From: Escherichia coli
GTDB lineage: Bacteria > Pseudomonadota > Gammaproteobacteria > Enterobacterales > Enterobacteriaceae
DNA: 64,000 nt
Assembly: GCF_048403405.1 (NCBI RefSeq)
Contig: NZ_CP183129.1
Direction: 5' to 3' (one strand)
Positions 18,001-21,000 of this stretch are shown here, in pieces (position 1 is the first letter of the stretch; each line of letters begins with the position of its first letter). Made by a program: the position numbers.

Positions 18001-21000
18001 TACAGGGGGACTTCTGCACGATAAGCATTTTCACTGCGCAGATACCAGCTCTCATCACTGTCCCGGTTGAGGGAGTAGTTAAAGGCCCCGGCCTGCAGCC
18101 TGTTCCCCTGGACAAAGGCCCCTTCCTCCGTGGTGGCACCGTTAATGGCTTCCACCACCTGAATACCCTTACCGCTGGTCGCCAGCCCCGACGCACTGTT
18201 GCCGGCGTTCACCAGGTTCAGGATGGTTTTTCCGGTTGCCCTGCCGCCGTCAATGACCAGTCTGTCAGCATTGTTCTGTGCCATATCCGGGCGTACACGC
18301 AGGCTGATGGTGCCATTCTGCCCGTTCAGGTTTTTCACTTTCAGAGTCGCCGGCACAAATGTCCCTGTGCGTGAGGAGGTGAAATGAATCTGTCCGGCAT
18401 GGCTGAGGTCATCCACCACCGACTGCACCGTGGCGTTATCGGGGATATTCCAGGTGGCATCGGAGGCGAGAGTGACATTCGTGGAGTCAATGGCACCGTT
18501 CAGCACAGTGCTGCCGGTCAGCTTCAGGGCTGTACCGCGCTGAGCAATGACATCCGTGGTGACGGTACTGTCGTTCAGCGTCAGCGTGCCTTCATTCAGG
18601 TTGACGGCTTTCTGGGTGAGTGTGGTGTTGCTGACAGTGAGTGTGCCACTTCCTGATTTTTCCACGCTGCCGTTACCGGTGAGAGAGCCTCCCTGCAGGA
18701 GTGCATCGCCTTCACGGATGGTCAGGGTATCGTTGTTCACCGTCTTCCCGGAAAGGGTAAGTATGGCGCCGTTATTCAGCGTGGTGGTGCCCGCCAGTGT
18801 GCCGCCCCTGGCGGTGAACAGTCCGCCATTTACCGTGGTATCCGTGGCCGTATCACCGGCGTTCAGCGTGAATGAACTGCCTTTTTCCAGCATCAGGGCA
18901 TCCGCCTGACCGCCCCCGATACGGAATGCCGTTCCGTCGCTCCGGGTACCACTGACAGCGGCCCCGGAATCGGCCAGCAGTACACCGCCATTCCCCATGG
19001 ATACGGTGGTGGCGGCACCACCGTTGCGGACATCCAGCGTTCCGCCATCATCCACACGGGTATTAGTGGCTGTGTGTCCGCTCAGCACATCCAGACGTCC
19101 GCCATTTTCCAGTACGACATTATCAGCCTTACCCGCCACAACGGAGAATGCTCCCAGGCGGTTTGTGCCGGTGACGGTTGCAGCTGTACTGGTAACCAGT
19201 GCACCGCCCGTGTTCTGGGTGACATCAGACGCTTTACCGCCGGCATTCACCTGCAGCTTTCCTTTCTGGTTGATGGTGGTATGCGCGGCAGTTCCTCCTT
19301 CCTTAATCACCTGCCAGCCATCACGGTTTATCAGCGTCTCTGTTGCCGTGCCACCGTTGTGTACATACTGGTTACCCCCCTCCAGTCGGGTGTTATGTGC
19401 CTCTCCGTGTACCGTCTGGTCACCACCGGCGTAAATGAGGGTGTCCCGTGCCATCCCCGAAGACCAGATAACCTGCCGGCCATTTTTATTGATGGTGGTG
19501 GATTCAGCCGTCCCTCCGACCATCTGACCGCTGGACACATTTTCAGACTCCGGACCACCTTCTGCACCGGTGTTGACGATGGTTCCGGTTGCCAGTCCGC
19601 CATGTTTTATGGTCTGGTAACCATCCTGGTTAATAATTGTACCGGCAGCTTTCCCTCCCCCGTGTACCCACTGCTCACCTCTGTTATCCAGCGTGGTGTT
19701 CACCGCCAGTCCGTTAAGGCTCTGCCCTCCGCCATCACGAATAACCGTATCACTGGCAGTTCCTCCTGCCTGCACAATCTGACGACCATTTGCGGTGACA
19801 GTGGTGTTTCTGCCTGTGCCACCCGCTTTTATCCATTGCCCGCCGGTGTTTTCGTCACTGTCCGGCCCCAGCTCAAGCCCGGTACTGACAGTCACGCCAT
19901 TAGCTGTTCCGGATACAAACTGGTTGTCATGGTTTACCAGTGTTCCGCCATTCACTGTTTCACCCGGGTGCACAACGATGTCAGCAGACAGCACCGGGAG
20001 TGGCGTGACCGCGGCAAGAGACAGTGCAACCGCCACACCGCCACGTTTACCCCGTGCGCGGGCCAGTTCGGAGGCAACCACGAAAGCGCCCGTAATGTGA
20101 TTCCATACCAGCCTGTAGCAGGTATTCAGATGTCGTTTCATCAGCATTTCCTTAATCAGAGTGAGGGTGAATAAAAAAGCCGGTATCCACAGATGTGGAT
20201 ACCGGCAGGTAAAGGGTTACAGTGCCGGAGGTCCGGCTGACGGAAGTTTCTGACGTGTGGCTCTGTTGTTCCCTGAATCTCATGTCTGTGTGTATCTGCG
20301 CACGTTGCTAACAGGAGTTATTATTAGCATAACGATCGATATTAACGATCGGTAAAATAGGTATTGATCGTTTTATTCTATTATCAAGCTATTGCACGGA
20401 CAAGAGAGACAGTAACGAAAACAGCGCTTTTGTGAGCAGACTCAGAGGCAGGGAGGACATCATCCACAACAGGTTCAGAAGAAGATCCAGTTCCATACCG
20501 CGCGGGCAACAGAGACCACTGTGTCACGGACGGCACGCAGAACCGTGCGTGCAACAGAGGCAACACAGACGCTCTCCGCTGTGTCAAATATCCGGTCCAC
20601 CGCACCGGTAAACTGCTCACGGGCCTGAGCGCGGACAGATTCCGTGCGCAGCTCGTCCTGCAGGCGGGTCATCAGGGGACTGGCGGCATGGTCGGGAAGC
20701 GCTGTCATGAGCGCACTGACCAGCGTATCCACTTCCCAGCCGGTGCGGGCCGATACGGCCACAACCGGATGTACAGGCCGGAACAGACGGAATACCGCCT
20801 CCGTTTTTTCGCGAATGTTCTGTGCCTGTGCGGGAGAGGGCTGAATGCCGGCCATATCCCATTCATGGCAGGGCTCCGTTTTGTCGGCCTGTGTCACCAC
20901 AAACAGCACCTGCTGATGTCCGCACTGCAGGATGTGTCGCCAGAAATACTCATCCACAGACAGGGCCCGGTCATCGGCTTTAATCAGCCACAGCACCAGG

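What the first reader, a model, noticed from the sequence alone, without database searches (positions are those of the whole stretch)
20171..20206. Perfect terminator hairpin inside the agn43 leader, immediately upstream of the flu ribosome-binding site
An 11-bp perfect stem (GCCGGTATCCACA...TGGATACCGGC) followed by a U-run lies about 30 nt before the flu start, between the GATC switch and the coding region. This arrangement predicts premature termination or attenuation in the leader, a second regulatory layer on top of phase variation.
Basis: partly seen in the sequence, partly recalled or inferred. Interest (0 to 1): 0.45.

Follow-up and report, generated by a model that had tools for sequence, protein, structure and literature searches.

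The report
Known agn43 leader terminator (IsrC end)

Summary
On the minus strand, which is the sense strand of flu/agn43, 20206..20179 forms a perfect 12-bp stem with a 4-nt loop (GCCGGUAUCCAC-AUCU-GUGGAUACCGGC). It folds at -24.1 kcal/mol (z = -8.7). UUUUUUAUU follows at 20178..20170, and 31 nt after the U6 run comes the agn43 start codon at 20141.

Rfam places it as the 3' terminator stem of IS102 RNA, the E. coli IsrC sRNA (RF00124), with a full-length match at 20371..20166 scoring 259.7 bits against a cut-off of 46. This RNA starts at the Dam/OxyR phase-variable promoter, so it is the terminated agn43 leader.

Two papers cite Wallecha et al. 2014 (J Bacteriol 196:2728) for flu being controlled by antitermination or attenuation at IsrC. 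The hairpin and U-run are present in all 98 distinct Ag43-family leaders I collected, including a leader family that is otherwise unalignable.

An ATG-started upstream ORF crosses the terminator in every allele. In this window it has 43 codons and ends in the UAA of the UAAGGAA ribosome-binding site, which suggests ribosome-coupled antitermination. A shuffle control shows this evidence is weak.

Verdict: a correct, already known feature of low interest.

The parts
20398..20403 (-). -35-like hexamer TTGTCC of the agn43/IsrC promoter
   Evidence: Promoter scan, 9/12 matches, 17-nt spacer. The region is conserved in the allele alignment.
20375..20380 (-). -10 hexamer TAGAAT of the agn43/IsrC promoter
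   Evidence: Promoter scan. AATAGAATAAAACGATC is invariant in 8 alleles, including the Cah-type leader.
20334..20369 (-). Three GATC (Dam) sites of the phase-variation switch (20366-69, 20347-50, 20334-37), just downstream of the -10
   Evidence: Read directly from the sequence. Invariant columns in alignment A1. The role as the Dam/OxyR switch comes from established knowledge and from PMC5389530.
20166..20371 (-). IS102 RNA (E. coli IsrC sRNA), i.e. the terminated agn43 leader transcript
   Evidence: Rfam RF00124, 259.7 bits (gathering score 46), E = 7.8e-51, model positions 1-206 of 206.
20152..20283 (-). 43-codon upstream ORF (MRFREQQSHTSETSVSRTSGTVTLYLPVSTSVDTGFFIHPHSD*). It reads through the terminator stem and U-run and stops at the TAA (20154..20152) that overlaps the SD UAAGGAA.
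   Evidence: the ORF listing and translation. An equivalent ORF occurs in 94/94 leaders, but the shuffle null is 0.58-0.78. Translation was not shown here.
20179..20206 (-). Terminator stem-loop: 12-bp perfect stem, 4-nt loop
   Evidence: dG -24.1, z about -8.7 to -8.9. 99.4% of cells are paired in 13 distinct variants, against 29-42% for slid controls.
20170..20178 (-). U-tract UUUUUUAUU directly after the stem
   Evidence: Conserved (5-7 U) in all 98 leaders.
20148..20153 (-). Shine-Dalgarno AAGGAA of agn43
   Evidence: Read from the sequence. TAAGGAAA is invariant in the alignment. It lies 6 nt before the ATG at 20141.
17019..20141 (-). agn43/flu coding sequence (autotransporter adhesin Ag43, 1040 codons including the stop). 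A second in-frame ATG lies two codons upstream at 20147.
   Evidence: ORF list. The annotation of the collinear M16807 record gives identical coordinates.

Best explanation
The hairpin is the Rho-independent (intrinsic) terminator in the roughly 230-nt leader of agn43/flu.

Transcription starts at the Dam/OxyR phase-variable promoter (-10 at 20380..20375) and runs through the three GATC sites. At the 12-bp G+C-rich stem followed by U6 it either terminates or reads through. Termination releases the roughly 200-nt IsrC/IS102 RNA. Readthrough continues into the SD and ATG 31 nt further on to give agn43 mRNA. The site therefore sets the fraction of ON-phase transcripts that become Ag43 mRNA, which makes it an attenuator layered on phase variation.

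Shown here: the structure, its strand and position, its identity with IS102, and its universal conservation.

Taken from the literature: it terminates, and flu expression depends on antitermination.

Inferred, less certain: readthrough is promoted by ribosomes translating the upstream ORF that spans the terminator, which blocks hairpin formation as in pyrBI-type coupling. In this allele the ribosomes would then terminate on the UAA inside the SD and could reinitiate at the agn43 ATG.
For: - Geometry and energy of a canonical intrinsic terminator on the sense strand.
- Full-length Rfam IS102 match whose consensus structure ends in this stem.
- Hairpin and U-run are present in 98/98 distinct Ag43-family leaders found with an anchor that does not include the hairpin. 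This includes Cah-type leaders that are unalignable between the GATC box and the hairpin.
- Variation is concentrated in the loop. Stem pair 8 occurs as U-A, U-G and C-G. The G-U state pairs only in RNA of the sense strand.
- The plus-strand copy has no U-run.
- For the ribosome step: an ATG-ORF starting 74-143 nt upstream crosses the terminator in 94/94 leaders, in all three phases and with different start codons. No non-random alternative (antiterminator) RNA fold was found.
Against: - No transcript 3'-end data for this allele were available to me, and the primary paper could not be opened. Termination itself therefore rests on secondary citations and my recollection of the abstract.
- Covariation in the stem is not statistically significant (130/500 shuffles reach it), because 9 of 12 pairs never vary.
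- The uORF argument is weak. 58-78% of shuffled leaders also give an ATG-ORF across the hairpin. Even the post hoc criterion of at least 70 nt has a null of 0.16-0.23.
- The uORF ATG has no recognisable SD.
Confidence: 0.9

Rival explanations
1. The hairpin is simply the terminator of an independent, trans-acting sRNA gene (IsrC), and has no cis-regulatory meaning for flu.
For: IsrC/IS102 is catalogued as an sRNA gene. One paper speculates about a trans target, cyoD.
Against: Only 31 nt separate the U-run from the agn43 ATG, and no promoter-like site lies between them. The IsrC promoter is the agn43 phase-variable promoter, so flu can only be transcribed by reading through this terminator. IsrC overexpression showed no phenotype in the biofilm, motility and fimbriae screen. 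The literature describes attenuation or antitermination. This is not exclusive: the terminated leader could also act in trans.
Confidence: 0.1
2. The stem-loop mainly acts after transcription, as a processing or stability element or as a structure that modulates access to the SD, rather than as a terminator.
For: PMC5389530 reports that stabilised flu mRNA in a pcnB mutant lacked IsrC, so the isrC-flu transcript is processed and the leader degraded.
Against: A U6 tract directly after a -24 kcal/mol stem is the specific signature of intrinsic termination. The SD lies 25 nt downstream of the stem and is not part of it. A discrete IsrC RNA ending here is catalogued.
Confidence: 0.08
3. The 12+12-bp palindrome is a DNA operator for a dimeric regulator.
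For: It is a perfect palindrome in this allele with very high conservation.
Against: In most alleles, including K-12 and the majority Cah type, pair 8 is T/G. That is a G-U pair in sense-strand RNA but breaks the DNA palindrome. The oriented T-run is conserved with it. Loop bases vary freely.
Confidence: 0.02
4. Readthrough is controlled by a classical attenuator or riboswitch with a competing antiterminator helix.
For: The leader is long (about 230 nt) and structured overall (z = -4.3).
Against: Leaders truncated before the 3' arm fold no better than shuffles in three alleles (z = 0.06, -1.09, 0.57). No Rfam riboswitch or leader family matches. The sequence upstream of the hairpin is unrelated in Cah-type leaders while the terminator is identical.
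Confidence: 0.05

Closest known systems
agn43 (flu) leader terminator / IsrC = IS102 RNA of E. coli K-12 (Rfam RF00124; Wallecha, Oreh, van der Woude & deHaseth 2014, J Bacteriol 196:2728)
   Same: It is the same element. It has the same position between the GATC/OxyR switch and the flu SD, the same stem sequence apart from the loop and one pair, the same U-run, and a full-length Rfam match.
   Different: This is a non-K-12 (UPEC island) allele, and the leader is 89.8% identical to K-12.
- The stem is perfect here (U-A), where K-12 has U-G: -24.1 against -23.5 kcal/mol.
- A 4-nt insertion puts the terminator 4 nt further from the ATG.
- The upstream ORF is a separate 43-codon ORF ending in the SD, not an in-frame N-terminal extension of Ag43 as in K-12.
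pyrBI attenuator of E. coli (leader ORF spans the intrinsic terminator; a closely coupled ribosome prevents hairpin formation)
   Same: The architecture matches: a leader ORF of about 44 codons reads through the terminator hairpin and U-run and ends just before the structural gene. No alternative antiterminator helix is needed.
   Different: No UTP-sensitive pause region or other input signal is identified here. The uORF lacks a clear SD. Translation and its effect on readthrough were not tested for this allele. This is a resemblance in mechanism only, drawn from my own knowledge of pyrBI.
Leader-peptide attenuators (trp, his, thr, pheA operons)
   Same: A short ORF and an intrinsic terminator lie in a 5' leader, and premature termination sets the expression level.
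   Different: Those use regulatory codons and mutually exclusive 1:2/2:3/3:4 helices, and the leader ORF stops before the terminator. Here the ORF crosses the terminator, and no competing helix was found.
Salmonella island sRNA isrC (Rfam RF01387)
   Same: Only the name. A copy also lies in this window at 59115..59237.
   Different: It is an unrelated RNA family at a different locus. The shared name can cause confusion in the literature.

Membership tests
Rfam RF00124 IS102 RNA (E. coli IsrC) | Covariance-model score above the curated gathering score, over the full model | tested here: met
   259.7 bits against a gathering score of 46, model 1-206/206, E = 7.8e-51. Repeated on the whole window.
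Rfam RF00124 IS102 RNA (E. coli IsrC) | Located directly upstream of flu/agn43 on the same strand, downstream of the yeeP-like GTPase gene | tested here: met
   Order on the minus strand is GTPase family gene 21347..20475, IS102 20371..20166, agn43 20141..17019.
Intrinsic (Rho-independent) terminator | Stable G+C-rich stem with a short loop | tested here: met
   12 bp, 8 G-C pairs, loop of 4, dG -24.1 kcal/mol, z = -8.7.
Intrinsic (Rho-independent) terminator | U-tract immediately 3' of the stem on the transcribed strand | tested here: met
   UUUUUUAUU starts at the base after the stem on the minus strand. There is none on the plus strand.
Intrinsic (Rho-independent) terminator | RNA polymerase actually releases transcripts there | not testable with these tools
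   Rests on the literature: antitermination or attenuation at IsrC. I recall in vitro termination in K-12 from the Wallecha 2014 abstract, but the paper could not be opened.
agn43 Dam/OxyR phase-variable promoter-leader | Three GATC sites clustered just downstream of the -10 hexamer, upstream of an Ag43-family autotransporter gene | tested here: met
   GATC at 20366-69, 20347-50 and 20334-37. TAGAAT at 20380..20375. Invariant across alleles.
pyrBI-type ribosome-coupled attenuator | Leader ORF that extends through the terminator hairpin | tested here: met
   43-codon ORF 20283..20152. Present in 94/94 leaders, but expected by chance in 58-78% of shuffles.
pyrBI-type ribosome-coupled attenuator | The leader ORF is translated, and its translation raises readthrough | not testable with these tools
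   No Ribo-seq data were accessible, and IS102 was excluded from the EHEC Ribo-seq analysis. I recall from the Wallecha 2014 abstract that the upstream start codon increases K-12 agn43 expression, but I could not verify this here.
Classical leader-peptide attenuator or riboswitch with a competing antiterminator helix | A stable alternative helix that sequesters the 5' arm of the terminator | tested here: not met
   Truncated leaders fold no better than shuffles (z = 0.06, -1.09, 0.57). No Rfam cis-regulatory family matched.

The most novel reading that the evidence does not exclude
The 'unknown' antitermination at the agn43 leader may be ribosome-mediated in all Ag43-family alleles. A weakly initiated upstream ORF is kept open across the terminator, so a ribosome following RNA polymerase blocks hairpin formation. 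In most alleles, including this one, that ribosome stops on the UAA of the UAAGGA Shine-Dalgarno sequence and hands over to the agn43 start. The in-frame N-terminal extension seen in K-12 would then be a minority variant. Ag43 output in ON-phase cells would report the tightness of transcription-translation coupling, and so growth state.
Probability: 0.35. Interest if true: 0.35.

Novelty: already known. Interest (0 to 1): 0.1.

Why it matters
Ag43 drives autoaggregation and biofilm formation, and its expression is a textbook case of epigenetic phase variation. The leader terminator adds a graded, growth-dependent control within ON cells, but this was published in 2014 and the terminated leader has been catalogued as an sRNA since 2002.

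This check adds two modest things. The terminator is universal and nearly invariant across Ag43/Cah-family leaders, even where the rest of the leader has been replaced. The ORF that crosses it usually ends in the Shine-Dalgarno sequence, which gives a testable hypothesis for the antitermination step.

Tried and rejected
- Reading Wallecha et al. 2014 by PMC id and by DOI: not held. Further literature searches for Term-seq or terminator descriptions found nothing new.
- Scanning genome contigs and viral contigs with the invariant start-region 18-mer returned almost only chance matches in unrelated organisms. None of these had an Ag43 N-terminus or the hairpin, apart from one 2.3-kb contig (L014).
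- Covariation as proof of the stem: only one compensatory pair, not significant.
- Universality of the uORF as proof of selection: the shuffle null is 0.58-0.78, so 94/94 is much less impressive than it looks. The stricter criterion of at least 70 nt (null 0.16-0.23) is post hoc, and the alleles are not independent.
- A competing antiterminator helix: not supported.
- A plus-strand terminator or bidirectional function: there is no U-run on that strand.
- The 366-codon plus-strand ORF 19074..20174 that overlaps the hairpin is antisense to agn43, and I treated it as spurious.

Full report
**Observation**

The window carries agn43/flu on the minus strand. The ORF is 17019..20147, and the annotated start is the ATG at 20141 (MKRHL...) in the collinear, 100%-identical M16807 record.

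Read on that strand, 20206..20179 is GCCGGTATCCAC-ATCT-GTGGATACCGGC, a perfect 12-bp stem with a 4-nt loop. It is followed directly by TTTTTTATT at 20178..20170.

As RNA it folds at -24.1 kcal/mol, against -6.8 +/- 2.0 for shuffles (z = -8.7, 0 of 200 as good). Twenty shuffled copies of the whole window contained no perfect hairpin of 12 bp or more. The plus-strand copy folds equally well but is followed by AGGUAAAGG, with no U-run, so the terminator is one-directional.

Thirty-one nucleotides separate the U6 run from the ATG, and the SD AAGGAA lies at 20153..20148. Upstream on the same strand are a sigma-70-like promoter (TTGTCC, 17-nt spacer, TAGAAT at 20380..20375) and three GATC sites (20366-69, 20347-50, 20334-37).

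**What it is**

An Rfam scan gives one strong hit: RF00124 IS102 RNA at 20371..20166 on the minus strand. It scores 259.7 bits against a gathering score of 46 and covers model positions 1-206 of 206. The hairpin is the terminal stem of the family's consensus structure.

IS102 is the E. coli sRNA IsrC, known as an sRNA expressed from a prophage region. It starts at the first GATC of the agn43 switch and ends at this terminator, so it is the terminated agn43 leader.

The literature treats it that way. [quoted passage not shown] PMC5811629 tabulates 'IsrC sRNA (flu gene attenuation)'. An RNA-seq study found isrC and flu down-regulated together.

I could not open the 2014 paper. The following is my recollection of its abstract, marked as my own knowledge:
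- It reports a Rho-independent terminator about 28 bp before the main start codon of K-12 agn43.
- The terminator is functional in vitro.
- It is bypassed less as cultures age.
- There are two in-frame start codons, one on each side of it, and translation from the upstream one increases expression.
- The antitermination mechanism is unknown.

The K-12 geometry I measured fits this: 33 nt from the stem to the ATG, or 27 after U6, with an in-frame upstream ATG.

**Comparative evidence**

The leader is found in 1,909 of 5,426 complete E. coli genomes. This window's allele is 100% identical to M16807 and 89.8% identical to K-12.

An alignment of eight alleles shows the hairpin, U-run, SD and start region nearly invariant. 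This holds even in a Cah-type leader whose sequence between the GATC box and the hairpin is not alignable with the others.

To sample without bias toward the hairpin, I scanned metagenome contigs with the invariant start-codon 18-mer. Together with the annotated genomes this gave 105 distinct 360-nt leaders. Ninety-eight have a true Ag43-type N-terminus, and all 98 carry the hairpin and a U5-7 run, 31-37 nt from stem end to ATG. The seven without a hairpin are chance anchor matches with unrelated downstream sequence.

Thirteen distinct hairpin variants give 99.4% paired cells, against 29-42% when partners are slid. Variation sits in the loop (AUCU, GUUU, AUUU, UUUU) and at pair 8, which occurs as U-A, U-G and C-G. 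The U-G state pairs only in sense-strand RNA, which argues against a DNA operator. Formal covariation is not significant (130 of 500 shuffles), because nine pairs never vary.

Stabilities range from -17.9 kcal/mol (the U013 type, with an A/G mismatch and a U5 run) to -26.1 kcal/mol. This window's allele is -24.1 and K-12 is -23.5.

**How readthrough might work**

No alternative helix competes for the 5' arm. Leaders truncated before the 3' arm fold no better than shuffles in three alleles (z = 0.06, -1.09, 0.57). No Rfam riboswitch or leader family matches.

What is present in every allele is an ATG-started ORF that begins 74-143 nt upstream and reads through the stem and U-run:
- In K-12-type leaders it is in frame with agn43.
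- In this window it is a separate 43-codon ORF (20283..20152), whose UAA is the first three bases of UAAGGAA, 10 nt before the agn43 ATG.
- Most alleles, including the majority Cah type, use that same UAA.
- Start codons and phases differ among alleles, and all three phases are used.

This architecture is that of the pyrBI attenuator, where a ribosome close behind RNA polymerase prevents the hairpin from forming (my knowledge of that system). It would also fit the growth-phase dependence I recall from the 2014 abstract.

The evidence is only suggestive. 58% (mononucleotide) to 78% (dinucleotide) of shuffled leaders also yield an ATG-ORF across the hairpin. The post hoc requirement of at least 70 nt upstream still has a null of 0.16-0.23. 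The alleles are related, and the uORF ATG has no SD.

**Context**

The window is collinear with a UPEC-type island containing:
- a CP4-44-like module (CbtA/YeeU toxin-antitoxin, antirestriction, JAB and IrmA genes);
- IS66 copies;
- agn43 and a YeeP-like GTPase gene;
- YfjI and hha;
- a sialic-acid cluster;
- iucABCD-iutA.

**Verdict**

The feature is already known and was experimentally characterised in K-12, and this is another allele of it. Interest is low. The only forward-looking element is the uORF-coupling hypothesis for the unexplained antitermination step.

Noticed in passing
window 59115..59237 (-): Full-length match to Rfam RF01387 'isrC Hfq binding RNA' (the Salmonella island sRNA), 97.4 bits against a cut-off of 39. 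It is unrelated to E. coli IsrC (IS102) despite the shared name, so the two could be confused in annotation and in the literature.
   Followed up: no
window 21790..21819: Perfect 30-nt palindrome TCGATCACGGTTTGG|CCAAACCGTGATCGA with a GATC in each arm, about 440 nt upstream of the YeeP-like GTPase gene start (21347). It could be a Dam-sensitive operator or a recombination site. Function unknown.
   Followed up: no
window 20145..20147 (-): A second in-frame ATG two codons upstream of the annotated agn43 start (ATG CTG ATG AAA...). It abuts the SD with no spacing, so 20141 is the likelier start. In K-12 this codon is AAG.
   Followed up: partly
window 16974..16998: An 11-bp perfect G+C-rich hairpin (GGTCCCGGTCA-TGA-TGACCGGGACC) lies 21 nt beyond the agn43 stop codon. 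It has no U-run on the sense strand and sits next to an IS66-family insertion (16132..16840).
   Followed up: no
window 42090..42118 and 56258..56287: Two further perfect hairpins of 12-13 bp: CACTGGGGCTGC...GCAGCCCCAGTG inside the MFS-transporter ORF upstream of iucA, and ATGACCGGCGTTT...AAACGCCGGTCAT after the 55458..56207 ORF. Shuffled windows contain none of this length.
   Followed up: no
L014 (JAIJJM010000521.1, 2.3-kb contig binned as 'Collinsella sp.' MAG), 1648..1726: This contig carries the E. coli agn43 start region and the terminator hairpin, so it is probably a mis-binned Escherichia contig in the public MAG.
   Followed up: partly
L048 (human gut metagenome contig, 2.2x coverage): The only leader with a 1-nt deletion in the 5' arm of the terminator (GCCG-TATCC...), which also fuses the uORF in frame with agn43. 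At this coverage an assembly error is as likely as a real variant.
   Followed up: no
window 11551..16840: Two IS66-family elements, one with a frameshifted tnpC, are inserted between agn43 and the yeeR-like 840-aa ORF (8906..11428). This breaks up the gene order seen in K-12 CP4-44.
   Followed up: no
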